Part shown: piece by piece, positions 13,902 to 28,904 of the stretch
Layout of the letters: every line of letters starts with the position of its first letter
Position numbering within the stretch: the stretch's first letter is position 1
Origin: a virus
DNA: 35,573 nt
IMG/VR virus record: IMGVR_UViG_3300043313_001992
Strand: one strand, 5' to 3'
Notes under the pieces: generated by a model
The model's input: only the letters and a program-made list of their open reading frames with translations
Told to the model about the DNA's origin: nothing
The model's database searches: none
Program-made: the position numbers and the translations under genes

Positions 13902-13917
13902 TGATAGACGTCGATCA
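13902..13917. promoter_or_regulatory. boundary motif TGATAGACGTCGATCA
   Basis: Lies between the tape measure and Dit genes. The TMP stop (13915-13917) is in the right arm. Confidence 0.7.
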
Positions 13918-15780
13918 CGGTAGGCCCGCCAGCAGCTCCAGGCGGCGGAACCCGTAGGCGATGTCCGAGGCGTCGGCGGTGCGCGGGTAGAGGTTCAGCG
14001 TGTAGTGGCCGCCCCGGGATTCGTCGGCGACGATCGACCGCAGCATGTCCTCGGGGGCCACGATCTCGGTCCCGGCCTCGCCGCCGACGAACACCGTCGG
14101 CCCCGTGAGGACCCCGCCCTTGGCCAGGTACGGGAGGTTAGGGAAGTCGATGCGGAACCCGCCGAGGGTGCCGCCGCCGTGTTTGCCCAGCGGGCCGAGG
14201 TCGACCTCGGGGATGGCGATGGTCGGGATGGCGAAGGCCAGCCCGTTCCACAGCGAGATCAGCGCGTTGATGGGCGTCTTGATGGCCGACACGATGGCGT
14301 TGGCCGTGTCGGCGATCCGGGCGACGATGCTGCGGAAGTGGTCGGCGATGGCGTCCCACTTGCCGGTCACGAAGGACCACACCGCGCTGGCCCCGCTCTT
14401 GATCGAATCCCACGCCCCGGTGACGAAGCCGACGGCGGTGTTCATGGCCGACTGGATGCCCTGGGCGATGGCGTTGAACTTGTCGACGGTCCACTGGTAC
14501 ACGGCGGTCACACCGCTTTTGACCAGGTTCCAGGCCCCGGTGATGATCGACGTCCACACGTTCACGTAGGTCGTGATCCCGGTGACGATCCAGCCGAACA
14601 CGGTCTGGATCCAGTCCCACAGGGTCGTGACCACCGCCTTGATCACGTTCCAGGCGCCCGTCCAGAAGGCGATGACGGTGCCGACGTACAGCTCGATGCC
14701 GGACACGATCCAGCCGAACACGGTCTGTATCCAGCCCCACACGAGGGTCACCCCGGCCTTGATGCCCTCCCATACCGCGGTCACCGCCCCGCCGATGAAC
14801 TCCCACACGACGGCGGTGGCGGCCTTGATCGTGTCCCAGTTCTTCATTATCAGGAACGCCACCACGGCGATGGCGGCGCCGATCAGGATGAACGGGGCGA
14901 CGGCCGCCAGCGTGGCGAGGGCGGCGGCCCCGGCGGCGGTGGCCCACGTGATGAAGGCGGGGATGACGATGGAGCCGACCACGATGGCCAGGGCGATGAA
15001 CCCGGCGATCATCGCCTCCTTGTTGTCGCCCATGAACTTGGCGACGTCGGAGATGGCCGGTATCAACGTGTCCATCAGGAACCCCGCCAGCGAGGCGAGC
15101 ACCGGCAGCAGGGCCGTGCCGATCTGCTCCTGAAACTCGCCGAACTGGATCTGGGCGTTGCGCATTTGCCCGGCCGTCGACTTGGCCGCCGTCGACGCCT
15201 GGCCCGAGAAGGTGGTCGACATGTCGGCCATGATTTCGTCGAGCGACTTGGCCGACCCGTCGGCCTTCTTGACCTCCACGCCCATCTTCGACAAGGCGCC
15301 GGTCGAGCCGTTGGCCGCCTTCATCATGGCGTCGGTGACGGTGGCCAGGTCCTTGCCCGAACCGGCCGACACGTCGGTCGCCAGTGACAACGCCTTCTGT
15401 GCGTCCTCGGTGTTGCCGAAGCCCCGCACGAGCTTGTCCATGGCCGGGCGTAGGTCGTCGTCGGCGATGGCCGCCGACTTGGACAGCGAGCCGATGAAGT
15501 CCTCGTTGGAGGCGATGACCTCGTCGCTGGCGCCCGCCACGTTGCGCATCGTTTGGGCGAGCTTGTCGGCGGCCTCGGCGTCGGCGGCGGCCGCCTCGAC
15601 GCTGGCCTTGCCGAAGTCCACGATGCTGCTGACGGCGAAGGCGCCGCCCAGCGCCAGGGCGGCGTTCTTGGCGAACCCGCCGATCTTGGACCCGGCGCTC
15701 GACGTGGCCTTGTCGACCTCGTCGGTCATCTTCGAGGTGTCGGCCAGGAACTTGGCGACGATGGTCGGCCCGACGGCCAT
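13915..15780 (-). CDS. tail tape measure protein
   Basis: 621 aa. It has a TP901-type core (DDDLRPAMDKLVRGFGNTEDAQKALSLATDV...), a central TM-like stretch, and repeated W-x-x-I/V-x(n)-W units. GAGGTGAG lies before the ATG at 15780. Confidence 0.9.
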   Translation of the reverse strand: MAVGPTIVAKFLADTSKMTDEVDKATSSAGSKIGGFAKNAALALGGAFAVSSIVDFGKASVEAAAADAEAADKLAQTMRNVAGASDEVIASNEDFIGSLSKSAAIADDDLRPAMDKLVRGFGNTEDAQKALSLATDVSAGSGKDLATVTDAMMKAANGSTGALSKMGVEVKKADGSAKSLDEIMADMSTTFSGQASTAAKSTAGQMRNAQIQFGEFQEQIGTALLPVLASLAGFLMDTLIPAISDVAKFMGDNKEAMIAGFIALAIVVGSIVIPAFITWATAAGAAALATLAAVAPFILIGAAIAVVAFLIMKNWDTIKAATAVVWEFIGGAVTAVWEGIKAGVTLVWGWIQTVFGWIVSGIELYVGTVIAFWTGAWNVIKAVVTTLWDWIQTVFGWIVTGITTYVNVWTSIITGAWNLVKSGVTAVYQWTVDKFNAIAQGIQSAMNTAVGFVTGAWDSIKSGASAVWSFVTGKWDAIADHFRSIVARIADTANAIVSAIKTPINALISLWNGLAFAIPTIAIPEVDLGPLGKHGGGTLGGFRIDFPNLPYLAKGGVLTGPTVFVGGEAGTEIVAPEDMLRSIVADESRGGHYTLNLYPRTADASDIAYGFRRLELLAGLP

Positions 15781-15783
15781 GGC

Positions 15784-16268
15784 TCACCTCGACTTTCGGC
15801 GGGCGGCTTTGTTGTGCTCGCGGATCTCGTCGCGCTGGAACAGCTGAAACGCCCGGTACGTGTCGTCGTCCAGCGCGTAGGCCTCGTGCGGGGTCATTCG
15901 CCAGAAGCGGCAGAAGGCGGCGAGGCTCCGAAGGCGGCGAGCTTCGTAGGGTCCATGACGACGGCCTCGTCGTCGACCTGGAGGGCGACGTCCTCGCATG
16001 CGTCCCACCGAAGGCCGGGGATGGTCTTGCGCAGGTGCGTCCACACCTGCGTTTGGGTGCGGTCGGGCGAGTTGCCGTTCGGGCCGACCATGTCGAGGTA
16101 GTCCCGGCCGGTTTGGGCCTTGAGGGCGCGCTGGGTGCCCGGCGACGGGAACTGCTGAAGCTCGTGCATCGGGATCGTCACGACGTCGGGCAACGGCGGG
16201 CGCTCGTCGGCAACCGACTGGTTGCCGTTGGGGTAGGGCTGTGCGTTCACGAAGTCGGTGTCGACCAT
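15784..16268 (-). CDS. tail assembly chaperone, putative -1 frameshift (G-T-like) product
   Basis: The -1 frame stays open across the 3' end of the G-like ORF (15784-16044) and continues as ...AAFCRFWRMTPHEAYALDDDTYRAFQLFQRDEIREHNKAARRKSR, ending 4 nt before the TMP start. I could not find a canonical X_XXY_YYZ slip site. Confidence 0.5.
15894..16268 (-). CDS. tail assembly chaperone (G-like)
   Basis: 124 aa, immediately upstream of the tape measure gene. CAGGAGC lies before the ATG at 16268. Confidence 0.7.
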   Translation of the reverse strand: MVDTDFVNAQPYPNGNQSVADERPPLPDVVTIPMHELQQFPSPGTQRALKAQTGRDYLDMVGPNGNSPDRTQTQVWTHLRKTIPGLRWDACEDVALQVDDEAVVMDPTKLAAFGASPPSAASGE

Positions 16269-16654
16269 GGGAAGCTCCTGGCGGTGTCCTCGGCGATGTC
16301 CTCGGCGATGGTGGCGAAGTCGGCTTCGGCGGTGACCGCCGCCGGGTAGAGGTAGCGGCCCTCGGGCATCAAGCTGCGGCCCCGGCTGCCGCCGAACTCG
16401 ATCCAGCCCGCATAGGGCACGTCCGGGTCGTGGCCGACGCCGACGCCGTGCAGGCCGTCCTCGTCGACCTCGACGACGTCCACCCCGGCGGCCAGCGTGC
16501 CGGTCAACACCGGCACGTCGTTGCGCACCTGGTCGGCGACCCGCTCGGCGAACGGTTGCGCCCGTTCGGTCACCGCCGGGCCGAGCTGGCGAGCCCAGCG
16601 CTCCATGTCCCGGTTGGCGTCGGCCAGGCCCTTGAACTCGATCTGGTCAGGCAT
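16247..16654 (-). CDS. HK97 gp10-like neck/tail-completion family protein
   Basis: 135 aa. VPVLTGTLAAGVDV...VPYAGWIEFGG resembles the HK97 gp10 family signature. It is located, unusually, between the major tail and chaperone genes. Confidence 0.55.
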   Translation of the reverse strand: MPDQIEFKGLADANRDMERWARQLGPAVTERAQPFAERVADQVRNDVPVLTGTLAAGVDVVEVDEDGLHGVGVGHDPDVPYAGWIEFGGSRGRSLMPEGRYLYPAAVTAEADFATIAEDIAEDTARSFPWSTPTS

Positions 16655-17135
16655 CGACGGCGGGCCGGGTCGTGGCCGTGGCCGTGGCGGCCTCGTCGGC
16701 GGCCACCGGCACGATGTTGGTGACCGGCACGTTGGTCCAGCCGGTGATCGACCATTCCAGGTCGAACGAGCTGGCGTCGCCGACGTCGCCGCTCAGCGGC
16801 GTGAACGGCTGGGGGATCAGCTCGCCGACATATTCGGGGTTGGTGGCGCCGACCGGCTGGCCCGCCGAAGGGATGACCGAGAAGGGCACGGGCACGCCGC
16901 CCTCGACGGCGGCGGTCAGCACCTCGTTCGTCCCCTCGGGGTCGTACGAGTGATAGAGGCTGGCCTTCAATGTCCATTTGATGACGCCCGGATAGTCGCG
17001 CACGCCGCACGAGGTCTTGACCTCGATGGTGGACACGTCGGGGGTCATCTCGATGTGGGACATCACGCACTTGAGCGAGCTGCCGTCGATGATCAGCTCC
17101 GGGTCAACGAGGATGACGGGCTGGAGGTCGGCCAT
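16647..17135 (-). CDS. major tail (tube) protein
   Basis: 162 aa from the ATG at 17135, preceded by CAGGAGCG. The pattern LIIDGSSLKCVMSHIEMTPDVSTIEVKTSCG...NPEYVGELIP resembles lambda gpV-like tube proteins. Confidence 0.65.
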   Translation of the reverse strand: MADLQPVILVDPELIIDGSSLKCVMSHIEMTPDVSTIEVKTSCGVRDYPGVIKWTLKASLYHSYDPEGTNEVLTAAVEGGVPVPFSVIPSAGQPVGATNPEYVGELIPQPFTPLSGDVGDASSFDLEWSITGWTNVPVTNIVPVAADEAATATATTRPAVDA

Positions 17136-17847: not shown

Positions 17848-17850
17848 GGG

Positions 17851-18408
17851 TCAGGCCTCGTCGCCCGTGGCCGGATAGACGTCTACCAAGAAGTCCTCCA
17901 GCCAGCCGACCAACGTCGAGCGGTTCCGGCCCGCCCGCTCGGCGTCGAGCGCGGCGGCGGCCCGCTCGGGGTGCGTCGACACGTACGCTTTGACCTCGTC
18001 GACCGTGCCATGCGCGCACACCTCGGTCGTGTCATCCCCGGTCGTGTCGGCGGTCGGGGGGTTGACCGTGAGCGGGACCGAGTTGGATTCCTCGCCGTTG
18101 TCGTTGCGCACCGTGATCATGCGGGTTCCGGCGGCGCCGCCCGCGGGGAAGGTGGCGGTCAGCTCGCCCGATCCGGTGTCGAGGACGGTCGCCTGGGCCA
18201 CCTGGTCGACCTCGATGACGGACGTCGCCGTGAAGTTGGTGCCCGTCACGTACAGCGTGACGGTCACGCCGACCCAGACCGACTCGGGATCGAGGCTGGT
18301 GATATGCGGGTCGGCGGCCGACCCGCCACCGCCCCAGACCTCGGGCGGGTAGCTGGCGCCGTAGGCCACCTCGGTCGCCCGGCGGAGCTGGGCGGTGATG
18401 TCACTCAT
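17851..18408 (-). CDS. Ig-like (IPT/TIG-type) domain protein, possible head decoration/accessory
   Basis: 185 aa. ITSLDPESVWVGVTVTLYVTGTNFTATSVIEVD...TRMITVRNDNGEESNSVPLTV fits an IPT/TIG beta-sandwich pattern. The gene follows the capsid gene, and AGGAG lies before the ATG. Confidence 0.65.
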   Translation of the reverse strand: MSDITAQLRRATEVAYGASYPPEVWGGGGSAADPHITSLDPESVWVGVTVTLYVTGTNFTATSVIEVDQVAQATVLDTGSGELTATFPAGGAAGTRMITVRNDNGEESNSVPLTVNPPTADTTGDDTTEVCAHGTVDEVKAYVSTHPERAAAALDAERAGRNRSTLVGWLEDFLVDVYPATGDEA

Positions 18409-19778: not shown

Positions 19779-19931
19779 GGTGGCCTCCCAGGTGATGCCC
19801 GGACCACGCCGGGCGGGGAAATGGGGGTTCCGCACGTTGGGCTGGACCCTGGCCCGGCGGGCGCCCCTGACACGGGGGACCCTGTGGTAACGGGAGCGGA
19901 GCACCGCTGCGCTTGGCGGTGAAGCGTAGCC

Positions 19932-19947
19932 AGATAGACGGCTATCA
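19932..19947. promoter_or_regulatory. boundary palindrome AGATAGACGGCTATCA
   Basis: The protease stop (19945-19947) is in the right arm. The motif opens the 166-nt leader before the capsid gene. Confidence 0.7.
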
Positions 19948-20930: not shown

Positions 20931-22231
20931 CGGACCGCCGCCGACGCCTGGACCGAGTTGGCGTTCAGCCGTTCGGCGGCCCGTATCTCGTCGATGGTCA
21001 CGGCCCGCTGGCCGGTGGCCTCGTCGTGGATGCCGAACAAGGCCGCCCAGGCGGTGACCCGCTCGGGGAAGGCGGGCCGCACGTATTCGTCCCGGTTCAG
21101 CTCGACCCGCTCGCCCTCGGGCATCGCCCACTGGCTGAAGGCCTCCATGATCATCGCCGCCTTCGGCCGCAAATAGGCCCTCCAGTGAAAATCGTAAATG
21201 GAGCTGACGTTCTGGTAGACGAGCGACCCGTCGCCCGTCGGGAGCCCCAGCAACGTTGGCGGGACCCCCAGCAGGGTGGCGATCCGGGCCTCGTCGAATT
21301 GGCGTAGCTCAAGCAGCGCCATGTCCCGGGGCGAGATCGTGAACGGGGTTAGCTCGACGCCGCCCGACATGACGGCGGGGGCGCCCATCGACGACATGCG
21401 GGCCGCCACGAAACGGTTACGCAGGAGCGTGGCCTGCTCCTCCGATAGGTTGCCGGGGGCGGTGAGGACCCCCCACGGGATACCGCCCCGGGTCGACAAT
21501 CCGGCCTGGTACCGCTCCAGCGAGGCGGCGCCAAACAGGTTCTGGGCGAGGGCTTCGAGCGGGCCGTGACCGTGGGCGTCGCCCGGCCAGCTCGTGTAGC
21601 GGAGGTGGAGCACGTCGTCGGTGATGTCTACGCCGCCCATCAGGAAGCGCCGCACCTGGCCGCGCATCTCGACCTCGACCCAGGCCGGGTTCAGCATCAC
21701 CCACGTCCGCACCGACCCGTCACCATGGCGGGACGTCGCCCATACGAAGGCCTCGCCGTTCATGTAGCTGACGATCAGCTGCTTCATGGCCTCGGTCCAG
21801 CCCGAATACACCTCGGGCTGTGGGTTGACCATCCACCCCGTCGGCTCGATGACGTCGGTGCCCCGTAGCCGGTAGGGGGGCATCGTGGCGAGGATGCTGC
21901 TGTTGAGATCAATCGCGCCGAACACGGTGCTTACCCGGTTGATCATCCCGGCGAGCCCCCCGGCGGCGTCGCCCCAATTGGGCGTCGACCATTCGACCGG
22001 CCACCCCGACCACGCCTGCACGGGCGGCGCCCCGAGCGACTCGGGGTACATGACGTGGGTGTTGCCGTAGCCCTCGGACGTCGTCGGCCCGGTCCCGACC
22101 GGGGGCGGGGGCTGGATGTTGTCGTTCGGCGGCCACGACCGGGGGTCGTCGGCCCGGTGGTGCCGCTGCTCGGCCACGACCAGGCCCGAGGGGGTCACGT
22201 GCTCCATCGGACCTGAGGGTAGCCAGGGCAC
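20927..22231 (-). CDS. portal protein (HK97-type)
   Basis: 434 aa. LGVPPTLLGLPTGDGSLVYQNVSSIYDFHWRAYLRP is typical of the portal family. The start is ambiguous: GTG at 22231 or ATG at 22207. Confidence 0.85.
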   Translation of the reverse strand: MPWLPSGPMEHVTPSGLVVAEQRHHRADDPRSWPPNDNIQPPPPVGTGPTTSEGYGNTHVMYPESLGAPPVQAWSGWPVEWSTPNWGDAAGGLAGMINRVSTVFGAIDLNSSILATMPPYRLRGTDVIEPTGWMVNPQPEVYSGWTEAMKQLIVSYMNGEAFVWATSRHGDGSVRTWVMLNPAWVEVEMRGQVRRFLMGGVDITDDVLHLRYTSWPGDAHGHGPLEALAQNLFGAASLERYQAGLSTRGGIPWGVLTAPGNLSEEQATLLRNRFVAARMSSMGAPAVMSGGVELTPFTISPRDMALLELRQFDEARIATLLGVPPTLLGLPTGDGSLVYQNVSSIYDFHWRAYLRPKAAMIMEAFSQWAMPEGERVELNRDEYVRPAFPERVTAWAALFGIHDEATGQRAVTIDEIRAAERLNANSVQASAAVR

Positions 22232-22234: not shown

Positions 22235-22250
22235 TGATAGACGTCGATCA
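22235..22250. promoter_or_regulatory. boundary motif TGATAGACGTCGATCA
   Basis: Lies 4 nt upstream of the longest portal ORF, at the portal/island junction. Confidence 0.7.
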
Positions 22251-22272: not shown

Positions 22273-22320
22273 GGGGCCGTACGACCTATGTTGCCCCGGT
22301 TAATGGCCGCCGATACTATT
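22273..22320 (+). promoter_or_regulatory. promoter-like repeat, copy 1 (leadered)
   Basis: GGGGCCGTACGACCTATGTTGCCCCGGTTAATGGCCGCCGATACTATT. It shares CCTATGTTGCCCCGGTTAAT and GCCGATACT with copies 2-4. The -10-like GATACT is followed by a 29-nt leader carrying GAAAGG before the ATG at 22350. Confidence 0.6.
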
Positions 22321-22349
22321 AGCACACCACCACCCCGAAAGGCCCCGAC

Positions 22350-23212: not shown

Positions 23213-23260
23213 GGGGCCGATCGGCCTATGTTGCCCCGGTTAATACGCGCCGATACTTGG
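23213..23260 (+). promoter_or_regulatory. promoter-like repeat, copy 2 (leaderless geometry)
   Basis: GGGGCCGATCGGCCTATGTTGCCCCGGTTAATACGCGCCGATACTTGG. GATACT is followed by 6 nt and then the ATG at 23264. Confidence 0.6.
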
Positions 23261-23263
23261 AAC

Positions 23264-23440
23264 ATGAACAACACCACCCCCGCCCCCGCCGCCCCCGCTA
23301 CCCGCAAGTTCACCATCCACGTGACCAGCCGTCACCAGTGCCCGGTCACCCGCACCATCGAGGCCGCCAACATTTGGGAGGCCCAGGCCTACGCCCTCAA
23401 GCGTTACTCCAAGTACGTGACCCTGCGGGTCGTCGGCTGA
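23264..23440 (+). CDS. hypothetical 58-aa protein (MNNTTPAPAAP...)
   Basis: The ATG sits 7 nt after the -10-like GATACT. GC3 is high. A hairpin plus T-run follows the gene. Confidence 0.55.
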   Translation: MNNTTPAPAAPATRKFTIHVTSRHQCPVTRTIEAANIWEAQAYALKRYSKYVTLRVVG

Positions 23441-23505: not shown

Positions 23506-23553
23506 AGGGCCGGACGACCTATGTTGCCCCGGTTAATACGCGCCGATACTTGG
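23506..23553 (+). promoter_or_regulatory. promoter-like repeat, copy 3 (leaderless geometry)
   Basis: AGGGCCGGACGACCTATGTTGCCCCGGTTAATACGCGCCGATACTTGG. The ATG at 23557 lies 7 nt after GATACT. Confidence 0.6.
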
Positions 23554-23556
23554 AAC

Positions 23557-23811
23557 ATGCCCAACACCGATACCACCCACTTCCTCGCCCGCCACAACAC
23601 CACCGCCTGCGGGGCGCCGTTCAACCCCGACGAGGTCACGACCTGTGTCCTGTTCATCGAGTGCGACGCCTGCGAGGACGTCACCCAGGCCGAGGCCCAC
23701 CGCCGGGGCCTGGAGCGCAGCCGCATGGTGGCCCGCTCCCACGCCCTGAACGCCGCCGCACGGGCCGGTGACGCCGCCGAGCGCCACAAGGTCATGTTCG
23801 GCAGCTGCTGA
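23557..23811 (+). CDS. hypothetical 84-aa four-Cys protein
   Basis: MPNTDTTHFLARHNTTACGAPFNPDEVTTCVLFIECDACED has a C-x13-C-x5-C-x2-C arrangement. Its TGA stop is the first arm of the motif copy at 23809-23824. Confidence 0.55.
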   Translation: MPNTDTTHFLARHNTTACGAPFNPDEVTTCVLFIECDACEDVTQAEAHRRGLERSRMVARSHALNAAARAGDAAERHKVMFGSC

Positions 23812-23824
23812 TAGACGTCGATCA
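23809..23824. promoter_or_regulatory. boundary motif TGATAGACGTCGATCA
   Basis: Its TGA is the stop of 23557-23811. It is immediately followed by the terminator hairpin. Confidence 0.7.
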
Positions 23825-23825
23825 C

Positions 23826-23860
23826 GGCCCCGGGCTACGGCCCGGGGCCGCCGTCGTTTT
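23826..23860 (+). terminator. intrinsic-terminator-like hairpin
   Basis: GGCCCCGGGC-TACG-GCCCGGGGCC (10-bp perfect stem) followed by gccgtcgTTTT. Confidence 0.55.
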
Positions 23861-23865: not shown

Positions 23866-23913
23866 AGGGTCGGATGGCCTATGTTGCCCCGGTTAATACG
23901 GGCCGATACTTGG
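23866..23913 (+). promoter_or_regulatory. promoter-like repeat, copy 4 (leaderless geometry)
   Basis: AGGGTCGGATGGCCTATGTTGCCCCGGTTAATACGGGCCGATACTTGG. The ATG at 23917 lies 7 nt after GATACT. Confidence 0.6.
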
Positions 23914-23916
23914 TAC

Positions 23917-24207
23917 ATGAACGCAACCCCCGCCCCCACCGTCAAGGCCCGCCGCACCGCCGAAAGCTACGTGTACGCCGTCGAGGTCGACGGGGTCGCC
24001 ACGGGCGCCACCATCAAGACCGTGCGGTGCACGGCTCGGGCGAACTTCTACGGGATCTTCGACCCGACTGGCGAGCGGATCGGCTCGGCCGAGTTCAAGT
24101 CGGCGCTGGCGGCGGCCAAGGCCAGCGCCGACCGCCCCGCCGAGCGGGCGACCAACGCCGCCGAGATCGCCGCCGTGACCGACTACCTGTTCATTACCGG
24201 TCAGTAG
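23917..24207 (+). CDS. hypothetical 96-aa protein (MNATPAPTVKA...)
   Basis: GC3 is high. It is convergent with terL and overlaps its stop by 7 nt. Its N-terminus resembles that of the 23264 gene. Confidence 0.55.
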   Translation: MNATPAPTVKARRTAESYVYAVEVDGVATGATIKTVRCTARANFYGIFDPTGERIGSAEFKSALAAAKASADRPAERATNAAEIAAVTDYLFITGQ

Positions 24208-25655
24208 ACGGCCGGGACGACGACCTCGGGGGCCGCCACCACGCCCCAGCGGGCCAGCGTGGCGGCCACCAGCGGGCTGATGTCGGCCGACGCCCGGCGC
24301 TTCCAGGCCCACGCCTCGCCGACGGGCCGCTTGGTGGCCCCGACCACGGCGTCGCCCAGCCGGTAGTCGCCCCGGTGGGACAGCTGGGCACGGGTGGCGG
24401 CATCGTGGAAATCGCCGCACGCCCGGACCATGTCGCTGAGGCTGATCAGCCGCACGGCGTGGGACCCGTCGAAGCGCCGGGTGGCCCGCTCCAGCGCCGG
24501 GATGGCCGACGCCGCCGGGTTGCCCCGGTCGATCACGATGGGGGCCTCCCACGTGGCGGCCACTTCCCCGGCCCGGGTGACGATCCGCTCCAGGTCGGAC
24601 CCCGCCTCGATGACCTCCAGAGCCACCACGTGCCCTTCTCCGGGGATTTCGACGGTCCCGGCGACGACCAACGCCCCTCGGTCCCGTTCGGGCGTGAAAT
24701 CGAGCCCCAGGGCGACCTGGGTCCCGGGCATCAGGTCGTCCCGGCGGCACGCCGCCCACGTGACGGCGTCGATGCCCGTGGCGGCGTCGGCGTCGGCCCA
24801 AACGTTCAGGTGCTCCCGCAGGAACGTGGCCCGGTCCATGGTCAGGGCGCCGTCGGATAGGGCCGCCTCGATGACCCCGCCGGGATACCCCATCGACGGG
24901 TTGGCCGCCGCCCACGCCGCCCGGTCGAATACGTCGGCGTCGGCCTCGGCGCACCATTCGAGCCAGCACATCGTCGAGGCCGGGTTGGCGACCTCCAGGC
25001 GGCCAACGTCGGTGAAGTGGCGCCACAACCCCGACCGGCTGTTCCCGGCGTTGCTGAGGAGCCAGATCTGGGCGTGCGGCTTGGCGGCCATGGCGGGCTG
25101 GATGCCCGACACGACGGCCATCGTCTCGTGGGCGTGGGCCTCGTCGACCACCGCCAGGTCGAGCGACAACGACCGGGCGGCCTTCTTGCCGGTGGGGGTG
25201 ACCGGCATGTAGCGCGAGCCGTTGTCCATGACGAGGACCTCGCGGTGATTCGACCGGTCGATGCGGGCCACCCGGTCGCGGAACGGGGTCGCCATGAGCA
25301 GCTCGACGTGCTCGGCCCATTTCGTCCTGGCGAGCGCACGGTCCTGGGCGGTGTAGGCGACCGTCTGGTTAGGCGGGATCAGCTGGCGGGCGATGCGGGC
25401 CAGCATCAGCGTGGTCTTGCCGTTCTGGCGGGCCACGGCGACACCGACCGACCGGTGGGCGGGCAGCTTCGTGACGGGGTCGTATTCGCCCGCCACGTCG
25501 GCGGCGTGTTCCTGCCACGGGAACAGCTCCCAGCCCAGTAGGCGGGCCACCTGGCGGTCCAGGGGGCCACGGGACGGGCGCGCCGGGTTGCGCTTGGTGC
25601 CCCAGCGGGGCGCCGCTGATAGACGTCGATCAGGTGCCGCTGGGGTCGAGTTCAC
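24201..25655 (-). CDS. terL: terminase large subunit
   Basis: Walker A-like VARQNGKTT and Walker B-like LAVVDEAH, with a C-terminal nuclease half. The longest ORF (GTG at 25655) overlaps terS and contains motif copy 25617-25632. The in-frame GTG at 25550 (VARLLGWELFPWQ) is an alternative start. Confidence 0.85.
   Translation of the reverse strand: MNSTPAAPDRRLSAAPRWGTKRNPARPSRGPLDRQVARLLGWELFPWQEHAADVAGEYDPVTKLPAHRSVGVAVARQNGKTTLMLARIARQLIPPNQTVAYTAQDRALARTKWAEHVELLMATPFRDRVARIDRSNHREVLVMDNGSRYMPVTPTGKKAARSLSLDLAVVDEAHAHETMAVVSGIQPAMAAKPHAQIWLLSNAGNSRSGLWRHFTDVGRLEVANPASTMCWLEWCAEADADVFDRAAWAAANPSMGYPGGVIEAALSDGALTMDRATFLREHLNVWADADAATGIDAVTWAACRRDDLMPGTQVALGLDFTPERDRGALVVAGTVEIPGEGHVVALEVIEAGSDLERIVTRAGEVAATWEAPIVIDRGNPAASAIPALERATRRFDGSHAVRLISLSDMVRACGDFHDAATRAQLSHRGDYRLGDAVVGATKRPVGEAWAWKRRASADISPLVAATLARWGVVAAPEVVVPAVY
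25617..25632. promoter_or_regulatory. boundary motif TGATAGACGTCGATCA
   Basis: The terS stop (25630-25632) is in the right arm. The motif lies at the terS/terL junction. Confidence 0.7.
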
Positions 25656-26154: not shown

Positions 26155-26164
26155 GTCGCCGAGG

Positions 26165-27373
26165 CTAACCAGGCGCCGTGAAATCGTGCGGTACCCCGGT
26201 GGCCTCGTTGACGGGCTCGACGCCCGTGGCCTCCTGCCACCGCCGGGCGATAACGTCGACGTAGCGGGGGTCCAGCTCGACGAGGCGGGCCGTGCGGCCG
26301 GTCTGGTGCGCCGCTATCAGGGTCGAGCCGGACCCGGCGTAGGGGTCGAGCACGGTGCAGGCGTCGGGCGCCCAGCGGGTCAGGATCTCGGCCAGGAGGC
26401 GGGTCGGCTTCTGGGTGGGGTGCATCCGGTGGGCGGCCTCGGCCCCGCCGAACGCCCCGAACCAGTAGCAGCGCAGCAGGTCCCGCTTGTGGCGCTGGGC
26501 CGACCAGATCAGCTCGAAGCCCGAGCCGAAGCCGGGGTCGCTTGACTCGGTGCGCTTGTCCCACACCAGCCACGATCCGTCGAGGTCGTCGGCGGTGAGG
26601 GTGCGCCGGTAGTAGTCGGCCCCGAACCAGAACTGCTCGCGCACGTCGGCGGCATAGGCGCGCAGAATCGAGGCGTCATAGGGCCGGTCGTCGTGGAGGA
26701 CGGGCCGGTAGTTGCCGCCGGGGGTGCCCCGCAGGATCGCCTTCGACGATCCACCGATGCCCGACCAGTCGGTGTCCAGGTTCATGCCGTAGGGCGGGTC
26801 CGTCAGGAGGCATCCGATACGGGCGCCGCCCACCGCCCGGTCGAGGACCGTCGCGTCGGCCGAGTCGCCGCACATCAGCCGGTGCGGGCCGAGGCGCCAC
26901 ATGTCGCCCAGGGCGGTGATGGCGGGGGCGGTGGCCGGGGTGTTGTCGCCGTCGGTCGGTGGGGGTGTCAGGCGGGCCAGCAGGTCGTCGAGGTCGGTGG
27001 CGGCGAACGAGGCGGCGGCGAGCAGCGTGGGGTCGGCGGCGTTGACCTCGGTGAGTAGGTCGAGTAGCGCCTGCTCGTCGTAGGTGCCCAGCTCGCTGGT
27101 CCGGTTGTCGGCCAGAGCGAACGCCTTGGCCGTCGCTTCGTCGGCGTCGGTGCGGACCACGGCCAGCTCGGTCCAGCCCAGCTGTCGTGCTGCCAGGAAG
27201 GTGTGGTTGCCCGCGATGATCGTGCCGTCGAGGCGGGCCACGATGGGCTTGAGCTGGCCGAAGCGTTCGAGGCTGCGGGCCACGGCGTCGACGTCGCCCC
27301 GTCTCGGGTTGCCCGGTAGCTGGTGCAGGTCGTCCAGCTGGGTGGCCAGCGGCAGCAGGTTGTCGGCGATCAC
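26165..27373 (-). CDS. ParB-like nuclease domain / DNA N6- or N4-methyltransferase fusion (copy 1)
   Basis: 402 aa from the GTG at 27373 (GTGA overlap). ParB-domain motif: LPGNPRRGDVDAVARSLERFGQLKPIV...GNHTFLAA. Motif IV is TDPPYG and motif I is VLDPYAGSGST (beta-class order). Confidence 0.85.
   Translation of the reverse strand: MIADNLLPLATQLDDLHQLPGNPRRGDVDAVARSLERFGQLKPIVARLDGTIIAGNHTFLAARQLGWTELAVVRTDADEATAKAFALADNRTSELGTYDEQALLDLLTEVNAADPTLLAAASFAATDLDDLLARLTPPPTDGDNTPATAPAITALGDMWRLGPHRLMCGDSADATVLDRAVGGARIGCLLTDPPYGMNLDTDWSGIGGSSKAILRGTPGGNYRPVLHDDRPYDASILRAYAADVREQFWFGADYYRRTLTADDLDGSWLVWDKRTESSDPGFGSGFELIWSAQRHKRDLLRCYWFGAFGGAEAAHRMHPTQKPTRLLAEILTRWAPDACTVLDPYAGSGSTLIAAHQTGRTARLVELDPRYVDVIARRWQEATGVEPVNEATGVPHDFTAPG
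26957..27373. repeat. 417-bp near-identical direct repeat, unit A (5' ParB-domain part of methyltransferase 1)
   Basis: Aligns with 28183-28599 at a constant offset of 1226 bp with only scattered mismatches. The antisense ORF translations given at 27084 and 28310 are identical for 73 residues. Confidence 0.85.
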
Positions 27374-28599
27374 GGCGTGCCCTTGGTGAAGTCGTGCGCC
27401 GCACCGGTGGCCTCGTGGATCGGCTCGAAGCCGGTCGCCTCCTGCCAGCGACGAGCGATCACGTCGCAGTAGCGGGGGTCGAGCTCGATGAGCCGGGCGG
27501 TGCGGCCGGTCTGGTGGGCGGCGATCAGGGTGGTGCCCGACCCGGCGAAAGGGTCGAGCACGACGGCGCCGGGCTTCGTGTGGTTGGCCACGGCCCGCTC
27601 GACGAGCGCGACGGGCTTCATCGTTGGGTGGTCCTTGGAGGCGGCGGGCCGGGCGAACTCCCAGACCGAATCCTGGGTGCGGTCCGGCACCGGGTGGTGC
27701 GGGCCGCCCGGTGCCCAGCCGAAGAACAGCGCTTCGTGGCGGTAGTGGTAGTCGCTGTGGCCCATCACCAGGGAGTTCTTCACCCACGCCAGGGTCTGGC
27801 GCCAGATCCCCAGGTCGTCGAGCGCCTCAACGAAGCAACGCATGGCCGGACCTAGGGGCGCCGTCACGAACCAGACGGCGCCGGGGTGGCAGCAGGCCAG
27901 GGTCGCCAGGAAGGCGGCGCTCAGCAGCGCCTTGGTCTGGTCGGCGTCGAGGGCGTCGTTGTCGATGGTCAGGGCGTCGGCGGTCTTGCCGATGTAGTCC
28001 ACGCCGTAGGGCGGGTCGGTCCACACCAGGTCGGCCAGGCGGTCGCCCATCACCCGCTCCACGTCGGTGGTGACGGTGGCGTCACCGCAGAGCAGGCGGT
28101 GCGGCCCCAGGCGCCACACGTCGCCCTTGGTCGTGAAGGCCGGGGGTGCGGGCGGGACGTGGTCGGGGTCCAACAGCGGCGACGGTGGGGGCGTCAGGCG
28201 GGCCAGCAGGTCGTCGAGGTCGGTGGCGGCGAACGAGGCGGCGGCGAGCAGGGTGGGGTCGGCTTCGTTGACCTCGGTGAGCAGGTCCAGTAGCGCCTGC
28301 TCGTCGTAGGTGCCCAGCTCGCTGGTCCGGTTGTCGGCCAGAGCGAACGCCTTGGCCGTCGCTTCGTCGGCGTCGGTGCGGACCACGGCCAGCTCGGTCC
28401 AGCCCAGCTGTCGTGCTGCCAGGAAGGTGTGGTTGCCCGCGATGATCGTGCCGTCGAGGCGGGCCACGATGGGCTTGAGCTGGCCGAAGCGTTCGAGGCT
28501 GCGGGCCACCGCCTCGACGTCGCCCCGTCGGGGGTTGCCCGGTAGTAGGTGCAGGTCGTCGAGCGGGGTGGCGAGCGGTAGGAGGTTGTCGGCGATCAC
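27370..28599 (-). CDS. ParB-like nuclease domain / DNA N6- or N4-methyltransferase fusion (copy 2)
   Basis: 409 aa from the GTG at 28599 (GTGA overlap with the HNH stop). It has the same ParB N-domain, TDPPYG, HPTMKP and VLDPFAGSGTT, but its central region differs from copy 1. Confidence 0.85.
   Translation of the reverse strand: MIADNLLPLATPLDDLHLLPGNPRRGDVEAVARSLERFGQLKPIVARLDGTIIAGNHTFLAARQLGWTELAVVRTDADEATAKAFALADNRTSELGTYDEQALLDLLTEVNEADPTLLAAASFAATDLDDLLARLTPPPSPLLDPDHVPPAPPAFTTKGDVWRLGPHRLLCGDATVTTDVERVMGDRLADLVWTDPPYGVDYIGKTADALTIDNDALDADQTKALLSAAFLATLACCHPGAVWFVTAPLGPAMRCFVEALDDLGIWRQTLAWVKNSLVMGHSDYHYRHEALFFGWAPGGPHHPVPDRTQDSVWEFARPAASKDHPTMKPVALVERAVANHTKPGAVVLDPFAGSGTTLIAAHQTGRTARLIELDPRYCDVIARRWQEATGFEPIHEATGAAHDFTKGTP
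28183..28599. repeat. 417-bp near-identical direct repeat, unit B (5' ParB-domain part of methyltransferase 2)
   Basis: See unit A. Confidence 0.85.
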
Positions 28600-28871
28600 C
28601 AGGACCTCGATGGTGGTGGGGGTGTGCGCACCGTGGGGTGGCGCAGCTCGGCGGCGATCATCTTGCCCTGGTGTTTCTGGCAGGGCAGGCATGCCGGGCG
28701 CAACACGCAACACCCCGACCCGGGGACGTGGTTGTGGAGCGCCAGCGGTGGGTGATGGTCCGCGCTGTTGGCCTTGGTCCCGTCGCACACGATGCGCAAC
28801 ACGCACGGCAGGCCCAGCGCCAGGAGGCGGGCACGTGCTCGCTGGTACGCCCGGTCGTAGGGGTCGGCCAC
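28596..28871 (-). CDS. HNH endonuclease (packaging-associated)
   Basis: 91 aa. CVLRIVCDG...ADHHPPLALHNH...LRPACLPCQKHQG fits the Cys4 + H-N-H pattern. It is the first gene of the terminase operon. Confidence 0.8.
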   Translation of the reverse strand: MADPYDRAYQRARARLLALGLPCVLRIVCDGTKANSADHHPPLALHNHVPGSGCCVLRPACLPCQKHQGKMIAAELRHPTVRTPPPPSRSW

Positions 28872-28888
28872 GCCGCCGAGGGTAGCGG

Positions 28889-28904
28889 TGATAGACGTCG
28901 ATCA
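28889..28904. promoter_or_regulatory. boundary motif TGATAGACGTCGATCA
   Basis: Lies 18 nt upstream of the HNH start and abuts the cos-like block. Confidence 0.7.

What the first reader, a model, noticed from the sequence alone, without database searches (positions are those of the whole stretch)
13902..28904. Five identical, co-oriented 16-mers (TGATAGACGTCGATCA) partition the packaging/head/tail region and supply stop codons
The copies at 13902, 22235, 23809, 25617 and 28889 are letter-identical and share one orientation. The element is asymmetric at positions 5 and 12 (A/G), so orientation is meaningful. Under uniform composition a given 16-mer is expected about 1e-5 times in 2 x 35 kb, so five copies cannot be chance. 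On the minus strand the element reads TGATCGACGTCTATCA, and its leading TGA is the stop codon of the tape measure gene (13915-13917) and of terS (25630-25632). On the plus strand its TGA terminates island gene 23557-23811. The related copies at 19932 and 8192 do the same for the protease, for gene 7871-8194, and for int. A regulatory element that doubles as the stop codon suggests a link between termination of translation and whatever binds there, or insertion or recombination precisely at gene ends. The centre is GACGTC and each arm contains GATC-like or TCGA sequence, so the sites could also be targets of the two phage methyltransferases or of the HNH nuclease.
Basis: seen in the sequence. 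Interest (0 to 1): 0.7.

Follow-up and report, generated by a model that had tools for sequence, protein, structure and literature searches.

The report
Genome-wide palindromic protein-binding sites in phage
The five identical 16-mers are real, and they belong to a family of about 14 evenly spaced 16-bp palindromic sites that cover this whole phage genome and its relatives, most likely docking sites for the phage's own DNA-binding proteins rather than stop-codon devices or methylase or nuclease targets.

Summary
Observation confirmed. TGATAGACGTCGATCA occurs five times, all in one orientation, where about 0.1 near-matches are expected by chance.

The five copies are the most uniform subset of a larger family, TGATAG-N4-CTATCA. 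The window is a near-complete 35.5-kb metagenomic actinophage and holds 14 such sites spread over the whole genome.

Related phages carry the perfect palindrome TGATAGACGTCTATCA 5 to 19 times per genome. Across nine genomes:
- 84% of 91 sites avoid the interior of genes.
- Spacing is more even than chance, about one site per 2 kb.
- Some positions are conserved: before portal, before capsid, between the AAA+ and VWA genes, and inside a replication gene in two reading frames.

Every complete or near-complete motif-rich genome recovered encodes two candidate binders. One is a ribbon-helix-helix protein (ParG/omega-like). The other is a ParB/Noc-like helix-turn-helix protein. In this window one site copy lies in the gap between these two genes.

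The window's asymmetry is a single-arm substitution specific to this lineage, and it is under purifying selection. Orientation bias is not significant. Stop-codon sharing (20% of sites) looks like a by-product of tight gene packing. A link to the methylases or an HNH nuclease is not supported.

The best reading is a multi-site operator or roadblock system. The closest published analogues are Cluster O 17-bp repeats, stoperators and KorB operator (OB) sites. Binding and function are untested.

The parts
13902..13917 (+). Exact copy TGATAGACGTCGATCA. It lies between the tape-measure gene (whose stop is the copy's TCA/TGA) and the next tail gene (GGAGG + ATG at 13889).
22235..22250 (+). Exact copy in the divergent gap between portal (ATG 22207, minus strand) and the + strand gene island. 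A -10-like TACCCT (22216-22221, minus strand) lies 13 nt from the copy and 8 nt before the portal ATG.
23809..23824 (+). Exact copy. Its TGA ends the + strand island gene 23557-23811. It is followed directly by a strong terminator-like hairpin at 23825-23850.
25617..25632 (+). Exact copy in the 79-nt terS/terL gap (terS stop 25630-25632, terL start 25550). The orthologous site in the 93%-portal relative L029 differs at 3 of 16 positions, while its flanks are 90-93% identical.
28889..28904 (+). Exact copy upstream of the first ParB_N-methyltransferase gene. A -10-like TACCCT (28879-28884, minus strand) lies 4 nt away. It is adjacent to a second palindrome, GCGCAACCGATCGGTTGCGC (28908-28927).
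19932..19947 (.). Family member AGATAGACGGCTATCA in the 166-nt gap between the protease-like and capsid genes. It supplies the protease-like gene's stop. A -10-like TACGCT (19923-19928, minus strand) is adjacent.
17873..17888 (.). Weaker family member GGATAGACGTCTACCA (2 arm mismatches), 22 nt before the stop of gene 17851-18408.
8192..8207 (.). Family member TGATAGGCGACTATCC between the convergent gene 7871-8194 and int. It supplies both stops. Its central 14-mer is identical to that of the 9563 copy.
9563..9578 (.). Family member AGATAGGCGACTATCA in the gap upstream of int (8202-9347, minus strand) and gene 9600 (+). Together with the 8192 copy it brackets the integrase gene.
6187..6202 (.). 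Family member TGATAGCCGACTATCA (perfect arms) between the XRE repressor-like gene 5664-6077 and gene 6230-6514.
3570..3585 (.). Family member TGATAGTCGACTACCA inside replication-module gene 3275-4741. A site at the same relative position occurs in homologues of three other phages and is read in two different frames.
31100..31124 (.). TGATAG-aag-TGTTAGGTAACTATCA in the divergent gap between the RHH gene and the ParB/Noc-like gene. The 16-mer at 31109-31124 overlaps the -35 position of a GATACT -10-like hexamer at 31134-31139.
32834..32849 (.). Family member TGATAGTCAGCTATCA (perfect arms) between the AAA_5 and VWA genes. This position is conserved in at least 6 relatives. Motif-less relatives have a 4-nt gene overlap there instead.
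33522..33537 (-). Asymmetric family member (TGATAGTCGCCGATCA on the minus strand) inside the VWA gene.
30872..31033 (-). Ribbon-helix-helix gene (53 aa), candidate binder. A profile of the family matches solved RHH proteins: SvtR E=1.4e-7, ParG 7e-5, omega 4e-3.
31196..31909 (+). 237-aa protein, candidate binder. It has a helical N-terminal domain with weak but consistent fold matches to the Noc/ParB DNA-binding region. It also has a nearly invariant helix (T/N)TLRLYRD, a long C-terminal helix, a basic linker and a conserved GDLRG end.
31940..32824 (+). AAA_5 (MoxR/CobS-like) ATPase, a constant neighbour of the ParB/Noc-like gene.
32924..34699 (+). VWA (CoxE/CobT-like) protein, third gene of the conserved trio.

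Best explanation
The five 16-mers are copies of a genome-wide set of 16-bp palindromic protein-binding sites. The ideal sequence is TGATAGACGTCTATCA. The arms TGATAG/CTATCA and the central CG are conserved, and positions 7 and 10 are free. A clade of ~35-kb high-GC actinophages places these sites about every 2 kb, mostly in the short gaps between genes.

Inferred mechanism: a phage-encoded dimeric DNA-binding protein occupies all the sites. The better-supported reader of the arms is the ParB/Noc-like helix-turn-helix protein gp31196. The neighbouring ribbon-helix-helix protein either reads the centre (TAGACGTCTA, a MetJ-type box) or is the binder itself.

Where a site overlaps the -35/spacer of a promoter, binding would repress initiation. 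This applies before portal, capsid, the methylase/terminase block and the regulator genes themselves. Elsewhere it would act as a roadblock or insulator between transcription units. The net effect would be coordinated silencing or timing of the whole genome.

The window's T12->G form is a lineage-specific single-arm variant. It is kept by selection and spread or renewed by site turnover.

Shown: the sites, their family, their placement, spacing, conservation and their co-occurrence with the two genes. Inferred: who binds them and what binding does.
For: Non-randomness and family:
- 14 sites against 0.1 expected.
- In 91 sites from nine genomes the arm positions are 92-100% conserved, while positions 7 and 10 vary.

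Family-wide use:
- 19 identical perfect palindromes in a 34-kb contig, 13+2 in a 35.5-kb contig, and 10, 10, 9 and 5 in others.

Placement:
- Only 15 of 91 sites are deep inside ORFs, although ORFs cover 83% of the sequence (P~1e-38).
- Positions are conserved before portal, with a TANNNT hexamer 8-10 nt before the ATG.
- Positions are also conserved before capsid, between AAA_5 and VWA, and before the trio.
- An intragenic site is conserved in two reading frames, so selection acts on the DNA.

Even spacing:
- The CV of the gaps between sites is 0.31-0.50, against ~0.9 for random placement. P=0.0095 to <1e-4 even against a null restricted to gene junctions.

Selection on the site:
- Three exact copies are 100% conserved between the window and L029 while the flanks are 71-91% identical.

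Candidate binders:
- RHH and ParB/Noc-like genes are present in every complete or near-complete motif-rich genome recovered (window, ctgA-D, L008, L039, L045). In the window and several relatives (L039, L044/ctgD, ctgA, ctgC, L042) a site copy lies beside the RHH or regulator gene. L081 has 9 sites in its 12-kb fragment and no detectable RHH there.
- The RHH profile matches ParG, omega, CopG and SvtR.
- The top fold hits for gp31196 are Noc and ParB.
- Helix TLRLYRD is invariant in genomes with TGATAG arms. This includes 40%-identical homologues (L074). All four genomes with helix variants (L040, L043, L080, L082) have altered, relaxed or absent arms.
- The RHH beta-strand residue after the conserved Asn is hydrophobic or small in phages with variable centres. 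It is mostly polar in phages with an invariant ACGT centre.
- The core TAGACGTCTA equals the MetJ (RHH) box.

Separate system:
- The XRE/HTH_17 switch gap has different inverted repeats and no 16-mer. This is therefore a separate system from the classical immunity operator.
Against: - No binding or expression data exist. The binder assignment rests on co-occurrence and a few covariation cases.
- L042 has the same helix as L081 but only half-canonical sites, and L081 lacks a detectable RHH in the 12 kb available.
- The fold match of gp31196 to Noc/ParB is weak (E 0.6-1, TM 0.34-0.38).
- Most sites in the relatives with perfect palindromes have no recognisable -10 nearby (by eye). The generic promoter scan found nothing.
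- No integrase was found in relatives ctgA and ctgB, either by tblastn with the window Int or by Pfam scans of their three large unassigned ORFs each. The system is therefore not simply prophage silencing.
- Identical asymmetric copies are not explained by a symmetric homodimer alone.
Confidence: 0.5

Rival explanations
1. parS/NBS-like loading sites with a non-transcriptional role. The ParB/Noc-like protein, perhaps with the ParG/omega-like RHH and the AAA_5/VWA pair, coats or organises the phage chromosome from evenly spaced sites. The purpose could be compaction, positioning or partition of a non-integrated genome, or shielding from host factors. Any transcriptional effects would be secondary.
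For: - The site is a 16-bp palindrome like parS, and there are many dispersed copies.
- Spacing is significantly even and covers the whole genome, including gene interiors.
- The nearest structural and sequence relatives of the two candidate binders are Noc/ParB and ParG/omega, which are segregation or nucleoid-organising proteins.
- The system is present in relatives where no integrase was found.
- Most sites are not next to recognisable promoters.
Against: - gp31196 has no ParB N-terminal CTPase domain. Pfam finds nothing and the model is all-helical.
- No ParA-type ATPase was seen among the window genes scanned.
- The window phage has an integrase.
- Sites strongly prefer gene junctions, and several overlap promoter-like elements. 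A pure organiser would not need this.
Confidence: 0.2
2. The RHH protein alone is the binder and gp31196 is unrelated to the sites. RHH dimers, or a dimer of dimers, recognise the palindrome as in Arc, MetJ or omega. The sites would then be classical repressor operators scattered through the genome.
For: - The RHH gene is next to a site in the window and several relatives (L039, L044/ctgD, ctgA, ctgC, L042, L043, L040).
- The core TAGACGTCTA is retained next to the RHH gene even in L040 and L043, where the outer arms differ.
- The core equals a MetJ box.
- The beta-strand residue correlates with how well the centre is conserved.
Against: - In most genomes the best-conserved positions are the outer arms, 10 bp apart, while positions 7 and 10 are free. 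This fits two HTH domains better than one beta-ribbon at the dyad.
- The predicted base-contacting residues of the RHH vary widely among phages that share the identical perfect palindrome.
- L081 has 9 sites and no detectable RHH in its 12 kb.
Confidence: 0.2
3. The sites are recombination or module-junction sequences. Short shared palindromes at gene boundaries would let related phages exchange cassettes and would be copied or converted in the process. This would explain letter-identical copies within a genome.
For: - Copies within a genome are more alike than copies between genomes (0.92 vs 1.64 differences).
- The int gene is bracketed by identical 14-mers, and the + strand island is bracketed by exact copies.
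- The terS/terL site changed at 3 of 16 positions to match the other copies, while its flanks stayed 90-93% identical.
- The AAA_5/VWA junction has the site in some phages and a 4-nt overlap in others.
Against: - 16 bp is very short for homologous exchange.
- Direct repeats would promote deletions.
- Exact conservation of arm sequence across very divergent phages, intragenic conserved copies and even spacing all point to a binding function.
- The Cluster O authors saw no involvement of their analogous repeats in rearrangements (PMC4351075).
Confidence: 0.07
4. One reading: the 16-mers are recognition sites of the two phage methyltransferases or of an HNH nuclease. Under this reading, the GATC-containing arm makes binding methylation-sensitive.
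For: - The window variant creates GATC and TCGA in one arm, and the centre is GACGTC.
- Two ParB_N-N6_N4 methylase genes lie just downstream of the 28889 copy.
Against: - GATC (210), TCGA (368) and GACGTC (42) are common and near expectation throughout the window. The 16-mers are therefore not special targets.
- Methylase targets are 4-8 bp, not 16.
- The palindrome family persists in phages with a different modification gene set, and in its perfect form it lacks GATC.
- No HNH domain was detected in the genes I scanned.
Confidence: 0.03
5. The element acts as an RNA (or single-stranded DNA) hairpin, for example as a processing site, terminator or translational coupling signal tied to the stop codon.
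For: - The conserved-arms, free 4-nt centre pattern resembles a stem-loop.
- The perfect palindrome folds at -10.4 kcal/mol with GC clamps.
- 20% of sites overlap a stop codon.
- L043 shows a symmetric (compensatory-looking) change, TGCTAG...CTAGCA.
Against: - Arm sequences are invariant rather than covarying.
- The window variant (five copies) and the L045 variant (four copies) break a stem pair and cost about 4.5 kcal/mol, yet they are conserved.
- No T-tract follows most copies.
- Some sites lie in divergent promoter gaps that need not be transcribed through.
- There is no Rfam match.
Confidence: 0.04
6. The element is a host-derived REP-like sequence or the binding site of a host transcription factor that the phages exploit.
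For: The host is unknown, so host factors cannot be excluded. Some relatives carry LexA-box-like sites near the RHH gene, which shows use of host regulators in this group.
Against: - The exact 16-mer is single-copy in all but one of the 119 metagenome stretches returned (that one has 2), and single-copy in 11 of 12 viral stretches.
- Multi-copy occurrence is tied to phage contigs that encode the RHH and ParB/Noc-like genes.
- Motif variants track variants in a phage protein.
Confidence: 0.05

Closest known systems
Cluster O mycobacteriophage 17-bp repeats (5'-TGTTCGGNNNCCGAACA; Cresawn et al. 2015, PMC4351075)
   Same: - Short palindrome with invariant arms and a variable centre.
- Dozens of copies across the genome, about one per 2 kb.
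- Mostly between genes or at gene starts, with some inside genes and few at predicted promoters.
- Predicted to bind a dimeric protein.
- The phages are distant structural relatives (portal 42% identical) and also carry Prim-Pol, AAA ATPase and ParB-domain genes.
   Different: - The sequence and geometry differ: 7+3+7 there, 6+4+6 here.
- No binder or function is known for Cluster O ('unknown function').
- Cluster O copies are denser at one genome end, whereas these are evenly spaced.
- The present family comes with a conserved RHH plus ParB/Noc-like gene pair and occurs in at least some integrase-carrying phages.
Cluster A (L5-type) stoperators (PMC6550527, PMC9283540)
   Same: - Many copies of one short motif in short intergenic gaps across the whole genome.
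- Each genome has its own preferred variant.
- The proposed action is to block transcription through bound repressor and so silence the genome.
   Different: - Stoperators are 13-bp and asymmetric, are read by a monomeric two-domain immunity repressor, and are oriented with transcription.
- The sites here are palindromic.
- The XRE-type repressor gap of this phage has other repeats.
- The system also occurs in relatives where no integrase was found.
KorB-OB / ParB-parS / Noc-NBS systems (PMC11790492 for KorB)
   Same: - 13-16-bp palindromes in multiple dispersed copies on one replicon.
- The sites are read by the HTH domain of a ParB-family dimer.
- KorB acts as a global, also long-range, repressor together with a small second DNA-binding protein (KorA). 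Here an RHH gene sits beside the ParB/Noc-like gene.
   Different: - gp31196 shows only a weak fold match, limited to the DNA-binding region.
- It lacks the CTPase N-domain needed for clamp sliding.
- No ParA/IncC partner was found. The neighbours are an AAA_5 ATPase and a VWA protein.
- The replicon is a phage, not a plasmid.
phiC31 conserved inverted repeats (CIRs) bound by the phage repressor (Ingham et al. 1994, Nucleic Acids Res; recalled from my own knowledge, not checked here)
   Same: Highly conserved ~17-bp inverted repeats occur in many intergenic regions of a temperate high-GC actinophage, with one copy at the regulator's own promoter.
   Different: - The sequence differs and the repressor family differs.
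- Even spacing and intragenic conserved copies are not known to me for CIRs.
RHH operators: MetJ met-box (TAGACGTCTA; PMC2532739), omega and ParG sites
   Same: - The core of the perfect palindrome is identical to the MetJ box.
- The adjacent gene encodes an RHH protein whose closest solved relatives include ParG and omega. Both of these are global regulators and centromere binders.
   Different: - MetJ, omega and ParG act on tandem arrays of short boxes at a few loci, not on isolated 16-bp palindromes every 2 kb.
- The sequence resemblance is not evidence of homology.

Membership tests
Cluster A stoperators | Asymmetric 13-bp site | tested here: not met
   The family consensus is a 16-bp palindrome. 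The window asymmetry is one substituted arm position, and relatives use the perfect palindrome.
Cluster A stoperators | Copies predominantly in one orientation relative to transcription (PMC6550527) | tested here: inconclusive
   5 of 6 asymmetric copies in the window read variant-arm-first with transcription. Across genomes my count is 13:5. This is not significant and the copies are not independent.
Cluster A stoperators | Same motif serves as the operator of the immunity repressor at the early lytic promoter | tested here: not met
   No family member lies in the XRE/HTH_17 divergent gap 5445-5663, which has different inverted repeats.
Cluster A stoperators | Many copies in short intergenic gaps over the whole genome | tested here: met
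   The window has 14 sites. 76 of 91 sites in nine genomes are not deep inside ORFs.
Cluster O 17-bp repeats | Sequence TGTTCGGNNNCCGAACA (7-bp arms, 3-bp spacer) | tested here: not met
   The motif here is TGATAG-N4-CTATCA. See PMC4351075.
Cluster O 17-bp repeats | Invariant arms, variable centre, ~1 copy per 2 kb, majority intergenic or at gene starts | tested here: met
   density is one site per 1.8-2.8 kb, the arms are 92-100% conserved, and positions 7 and 10 are free.
ParB-parS / KorB-OB / Noc-NBS | Palindromic 13-16-bp site in several dispersed copies | tested here: met
ParB-parS / KorB-OB / Noc-NBS | Binder is a ParB-family protein (HTH DNA-binding domain) | tested here: inconclusive
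   The AlphaFold model of gp31196 has pLDDT 88. Its top Foldseek hits are Noc and ParB, but at E 0.6-1 and TM 0.34-0.38. There is no Pfam hit. Binding was not tested.
ParB-parS / KorB-OB / Noc-NBS | N-terminal ParB/Srx CTPase domain enabling clamp closure and sliding | tested here: not met
   gp31196 has no ParB_N hit and its model contains no beta strands. The ParB_N domains in the window belong to the two methyltransferases.
ParB-parS / KorB-OB / Noc-NBS | Partner ParA/IncC-type ATPase | tested here: not met
   None was found among the window proteins scanned. The neighbours are AAA_5 and VWA. Not every small ORF was scanned.
RHH repressor operators (MetJ/Arc/omega/ParG type) | RHH protein encoded by the element | tested here: met
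   The family profile matches solved RHH proteins: 2kel 1.4e-7, ParG 7e-5, CopG 3e-4, omega 4e-3.
RHH repressor operators (MetJ/Arc/omega/ParG type) | Operator copy at the RHH gene's own promoter | tested here: met
   The window copy at 31100-31124 lies 76 nt upstream of the RHH start. The same arrangement is seen in several relatives (L039, L044/ctgD, ctgA, ctgC, L042, L043, L040).
RHH repressor operators (MetJ/Arc/omega/ParG type) | Arrays of adjacent short boxes bound cooperatively | tested here: not met
   The sites are isolated single 16-mers about 2 kb apart. Only the 31100-31124 region shows an extra overlapping half-site.
Host REP-like intergenic repeat | High copy number in the host chromosome, independent of phage genes | not testable with these tools
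   The host is unknown. In the metagenome and viral scans the exact 16-mer is single-copy outside this phage lineage.
Methyltransferase / restriction target | Short motif whose every occurrence is a target; occurrence tied to the cognate enzyme | tested here: not met
   The sub-motifs GATC, TCGA and GACGTC are abundant elsewhere. The palindrome persists with a different modification gene family. Methylation itself is not testable here.

The most novel reading that the evidence does not exclude
The evenly spaced palindromes are loading sites for a previously undescribed phage chromatin-like system. In this reading a ParB/Noc-type DNA-binding protein without a CTPase domain, carrying a conserved C-terminal GDLRG peptide, sits on sites every ~2 kb, possibly together with a ParG/omega-like RHH on the opposite DNA face. 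A dedicated MoxR-type AAA+ ATPase with its VWA adaptor then installs or strips it. This would give ATP-driven, genome-wide switching of a phage chromosome between silent and active states.
Probability: 0.15. Interest if true: 0.85.

Novelty: new variant of a known kind. Interest (0 to 1): 0.55.

Why it matters
Dispersed short repeats in actinophage genomes are a long-noted puzzle. The Cluster O 17-bp repeats have been 'of unknown function' since 2015.

This family offers an unusually tractable case:
- A sharply defined 16-bp palindrome.
- Two named candidate binders encoded next to a site copy.
- Natural specificity variants: TGATAG, TGCTAG, relaxed arms, and free versus fixed centres.
- Genomes with 5-19 identical copies.
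- A measurable property, even spacing, that constrains models.

If the sites are multi-site operators or roadblocks, they show that stoperator-like whole-genome control has arisen with symmetric sites and ParB/RHH-type proteins. If the AAA+/VWA pair acts on the bound protein, that would be a new mode of phage genome regulation.

For annotation, recognising the motif fixes several gene starts and stops and marks transcription-unit boundaries in this uncultured phage group.

Tried and rejected
- **Near-identical DNA in the 50,697 GenBank phage records:** none. No annotated close relative exists.
- **Generic sigma-70 promoter scan:** uninformative in 70% GC DNA.
- **Five copies as part of a longer repeat:** rejected, because the flanks are unrelated.
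- **XRE repressor (5664-6077) as binder:** unlikely. Its own divergent gap lacks the motif and has other repeats. No XRE homologue of the window protein was found in ctgA-D, the only relatives searched with it.
- **AAA_5/VWA pair as a marker of the motif:** rejected. The pair occurs in L040 and L043 with few or altered sites, and in Gordonia phage Gray without palindromes.
- **Prophage relatives in 185,579 reference genomes:** only 2 distant hits. Host not identified.
- **Names for the gp31196 family:** none. There are 100 metagenomic homologues with no Pfam, PHROG, PADLOC or phage-database match. A weak LmbU hint (E 0.017) was disregarded.
- **Literature search for the 16-mer, 14-mer and 10-mer core:** the 16-mer and 14-mer gave no hits at all. 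The 10-mer core TAGACGTCTA gave only unrelated papers, apart from its use as the MetJ motif. No open text was found for the phiC31 CIRs.
- **Rfam and tRNA scans:** nothing.
- **Methylase/HNH target and RNA hairpin readings:** tested and set aside.
- **Metagenome scan with the exact variant:** It added little.

Full report

Yes. TGATAGACGTCGATCA occurs exactly at 13902, 22235, 23809, 25617 and 28889, always on the + strand. With up to three mismatches there are 19 matches, where dinucleotide-preserving shuffles give 0.10. The flanks of the five copies share no further similarity, so the repeated unit is just the 16 bp.

- The tape-measure gene ends at 13915-13917.
- terS ends at 25630-25632.
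- The + strand island gene ends at 23811.
- The protease-like gene ends at 19945-19947.
- Gene 7871-8194 and int both end inside the 8192 copy.

**2. What is the window?**

- GC content is about 71%.
- The same phage appears as 34.3-35.6-kb contigs in several metagenomes, so the window is essentially a whole phage genome.
- On the minus strand lie holin/endolysin, two ParB_N-methyltransferases, terS, terL, portal, protease-like, capsid, tape measure, tail genes and a tyrosine integrase.
- A minus-strand early operon starts with an HTH_17 gene and ends with Prim-Pol/helicase.
- On the + strand lie an XRE regulator, a small gene island between terL and portal, and a trio of unknown protein, AAA_5 ATPase and VWA protein.
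- There is no near DNA match among GenBank phages.
- The portal is about 42% identical to Cluster O mycobacteriophages.

**3. The five copies belong to a larger palindromic family.**

A scan for the arms alone (TGATAG-N4-CTATCA, <=2 arm mismatches) finds 14 sites, where 0.1 is expected. They lie at 3570, 6187, 8192, 9563, 13902, 17873, 19932, 22235, 23809, 25617, 28889, 31109, 32834 and 33522. The sites are spread over the whole genome and not only the late region.

**4. Relatives.**

Loci were fetched through the portal, the AAA_5 protein, the exact variant and the perfect palindrome. They show the same element in many uncultured phages.

| Source | Length | Sites |
|---|---|---|
| IMGVR_UViG_3300047160_001130 (stitched) | 34,031 bp | 19 identical perfect palindromes |
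| IMGVR_UViG_3300010376_000087 (stitched) | 35,548 bp | 13 identical + 2 variants |
| IMGVR_UViG_3300013308_000745 (stitched) | 28,032 bp | 10 |
| L049 | 14.8 kb | 5 identical |
| L008 | 21 kb | 10, perfect arms, free centres |
| L081 | 12 kb | 9, perfect arms, free centres |

Other genomes have their own predominant variant. L045 has TGATAGACGTCTAACA three times plus one inverted copy. L039 has TGATAGACGTCTGTCA three times. L043 has the symmetric TGCTAGACGTCTAGCA twice. L040 and L080 keep only the core TAGACGTCTA with relaxed outer arms. Close structural relatives such as L007 (portal 79%) have none.

Over 91 sites in nine genomes, the arm positions and C8/G9 are 92-100% conserved, and positions 7 and 10 are free.

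**5. Placement.**

- Only 15 of 91 sites lie more than 60 nt inside an ORF, although ORFs cover 83% of the sequence (P~1e-38).
- Several positions are orthologous across divergent phages. One lies just upstream of portal, where a TANNNT hexamer sits 8-10 nt before the ATG and 7-22 nt from the palindrome.
- Other orthologous positions are the protease/capsid gap, the AAA_5/VWA junction, and upstream of the trio. Motif-less L040 and L043 have a 4-nt gene overlap at the AAA_5/VWA junction instead.
- In the window, -10-like hexamers follow the copies at 28889, 22235 and 19932 within 3-13 nt. The 31109 copy overlaps the -35 position of a GATACT hexamer.
- Other copies (13902, 25617, 8192) have no promoter-like neighbour. 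Most copies in the two perfect-palindrome genomes have none either.
- A site inside the 3275-4741 replication-module gene recurs at the same relative position in three other phages. It is translated in two different frames there (LVVDYH, DVYQ, DRRLS), so the DNA is under selection, not the peptide.

**6. Even spacing.**

The gaps between sites have a coefficient of variation (CV) of 0.50 (window), 0.42, 0.32 and 0.31. Random placement gives about 0.9. P is 0.007 to <1e-4. P is 0.0095 to <1e-4 even when the null draws only from gene junctions. The sites therefore tile the genomes at about 2-kb intervals.

**7. Selection and turnover.**

Between the window and L029 (portal 93%), three orthologous exact copies are 100% identical while their flanks are 71-91% identical. 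The G12 variant is therefore maintained in two diverged lineages. The terS/terL site differs at 3 of 16 positions while its flanks are 90-93% identical. That site has thus been remodelled towards, or away from, the house variant.

Copies within a genome are more alike than copies between genomes (0.92 vs 1.64 differences). A symmetric homodimer does not by itself explain letter-identical asymmetric copies. Conversion or turnover, or a directional function, remains open.

Co-orientation of five copies alone has P~1/16. The sixth asymmetric copy (33522) is inverted on the + strand but has the same polarity relative to transcription.

**8. Who binds?**

Two small genes flank a site copy in the window.

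- *The RHH protein.* On the minus strand at 31033-30872 is a 53-aa protein that my gene caller had missed. A profile of 13 homologues matches solved ribbon-helix-helix proteins: SvtR 1.4e-7, ParG 7e-5, CopG 3e-4 and omega 4e-3.
- *gp31196.* On the + strand at 31196-31909 is a 237-aa protein with 100 metagenomic homologues and no Pfam, PHROG, PADLOC or phage-database match. Its AlphaFold model (pLDDT 88) is all-helical. Its best Foldseek hits are Noc and ParB, though weakly (E 0.6-1, probability up to 0.96, TM 0.34-0.38).

Both genes are present in every complete or near-complete motif-rich genome recovered.

Evidence on the arms: the putative recognition helix (T/N)TLRLYRD is invariant in genomes with TGATAG arms, even in 40%-identical homologues such as L074. 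The four genomes with helix variants have altered, relaxed or no arms. These are L043 (DTLRAYRA), L040 (KTLYSYRD), L080 (STLRAYRD) and L082 (NTLRIYRN). The association is not perfect, because L042 shares the helix of L081 yet has half-canonical sites.

Evidence on the centre: in the RHH, the beta-strand residue after the conserved Asn is hydrophobic or small in phages whose site centres vary. It is mostly polar in phages with an invariant ACGT centre. The core TAGACGTCTA is the MetJ box.

My working model is that the HTH dimer reads the arms, which are 10 bp apart, and that the RHH reads the centre or competes for the site. This is inference.

The XRE/HTH_17 switch gap contains different inverted repeats and no family member. 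The 16-mer system is therefore distinct from the classical immunity operator.

**9. What it most likely does.**

The palindromic sequence, sequence-invariant arms, junction preference, overlap with some promoters, apparently autoregulatory copies and whole-genome tiling all point one way. They fit a multi-site operator or roadblock system that silences or times transcription units.

A non-transcriptional ParB/Noc-like organising role is the main rival. It is favoured by the even spacing, the intragenic copies, the partition-type relatives of both proteins, and the presence of the system in relatives where no integrase was found. It is disfavoured by the missing CTPase domain and ParA partner and by the strong junction preference.

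**10.

- *Stop-codon supply.* It is real but occurs at 18 of 91 sites. A motif starting TGA(TAG) and ending TCA that is squeezed against gene ends will often serve as the stop. I see no evidence for coupling to translation termination.
- *Methylase or HNH targeting.* It is not supported. GATC, TCGA and GACGTC are frequent everywhere. The family persists with a different modification gene set. No HNH domain was found in the genes scanned.
- *RNA hairpin role.* It is unlikely because conserved variants break the stem and the arms do not covary.
- *Host REP-like element.* The exact variant is essentially single-copy in other viral and metagenome contigs. This argues against a widespread REP-like element, though the host genome itself could not be examined.

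**11. Comparison with known systems.**

- The nearest published analogue is the Cluster O 17-bp palindrome: more than 30 copies, function unknown (PMC4351075).
- Stoperators share the tiling and the proposed silencing role, but they are asymmetric, oriented and read by a monomeric immunity repressor (PMC6550527; PMC9283540).
- KorB-OB/KorA on RK2 is the closest mechanistic parallel for a ParB-type global regulator with dispersed palindromes and a small partner protein (PMC11790492). The defining CTPase domain and ParA partner are absent here.
- The motif itself is not in the searched literature.

I rate this a new variant of a known kind. The motif family, its candidate binders, its even spacing and its constant association with an AAA_5/VWA pair are new. 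The general phenomenon is not.

Noticed in passing
22274-22348, 23214-23288, 23507-23581, 23867-23941 (+ strand): Four ~75-nt promoter-like direct repeats (CCTATGTTGCCCCGGTTAATAC..GCCGATACTTGGnACATG). In three of them an ATG lies 6 nt after the GATACT hexamer, which is a leaderless-type start. They drive small + strand genes (23264-23440, 23557-23811, 23917-24207) embedded against the minus-strand late operon between terL and portal. These genes have no Pfam or PADLOC hits.
   Followed up: partly
28908-28927 and 29149-29168 (weaker copies at 6455 and 16210): A second palindrome, GCGCAACCGATCGGTTGCGC, occurs twice in the 530-nt non-coding gap between the endolysin and the first methyltransferase, beside the 28889 copy. 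It is conserved in relative L029. It could be a terminator pair, a packaging site or an origin feature.
   Followed up: no
26957-27256 vs 28183-28482: The two tandem ParB_N + N6_N4 methyltransferase genes share a 300-nt stretch that is 98% identical, plus a 177-nt stretch at 84%. This suggests a recent duplication or conversion between paralogues.
   Followed up: no
8193-8206 and 9564-9577: The integrase gene (8202-9347) is bracketed by two family members with identical central 14-mers (GATAGGCGACTATC). These differ from all other copies in the genome, as if the int cassette had been gained or moved by exchange at the sites.
   Followed up: partly
5445-5663: The divergent gap between the HTH_17 (Xis/Cro-like) and XRE genes has its own inverted repeats, GTGCCACGTGGTGCC / GGCACCTAGTGGCAC. 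These are probably the classical immunity operators, and they are unrelated to the 16-mer.
   Followed up: partly
31196-31909 (C-terminus); homologues in L008, L039-L045: The ParB/Noc-like family ends in a conserved GDLRG(L) peptide after an Ala/Pro/Lys-rich linker. This could be a docking motif for the neighbouring VWA protein's MIDAS site or for the AAA_5 ATPase.
   Followed up: no
L083 (Gordonia phage Gray, MK279853.1 57687-60776): Homologues of the AAA_5 ATPase (33-38% identity) occur in isolated Gordonia, Brevibacterium and Mycobacterium phages. They are variously annotated 'AAA-ATPase' or 'porphyrin biosynthesis' (CobS/CobT-like). In phage Gray, the one region examined, the ATPase gene is followed by a ~600-aa protein, and there is no palindrome family.
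   Followed up: partly
L082 3442-3457 and 3499-3514: A relative with a variant recognition helix has two actinobacterial LexA-box-like palindromes (TCGAAC-N4-GTTCGA) upstream of its RHH gene instead of the TGATAG motif. This hints at SOS control of the same module.
   Followed up: no
10014-10384 and 14266-14838: Internal ~120-nt periodic repeats occur in a tail-region ORF (10014-10384) and in the tape-measure gene (14266-14838).
   Followed up: no
L057 6846-8237 (ctgA) and L052 2527-3984 (ctgB): Relatives carry a DAM-like-phage1 + phage GNAT-like fusion gene in the packaging-proximal region, upstream of terS in ctgA. In the window this region holds the ParB_N-methyltransferases, so the DNA-modification module has been swapped within the group.
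   Followed up: no
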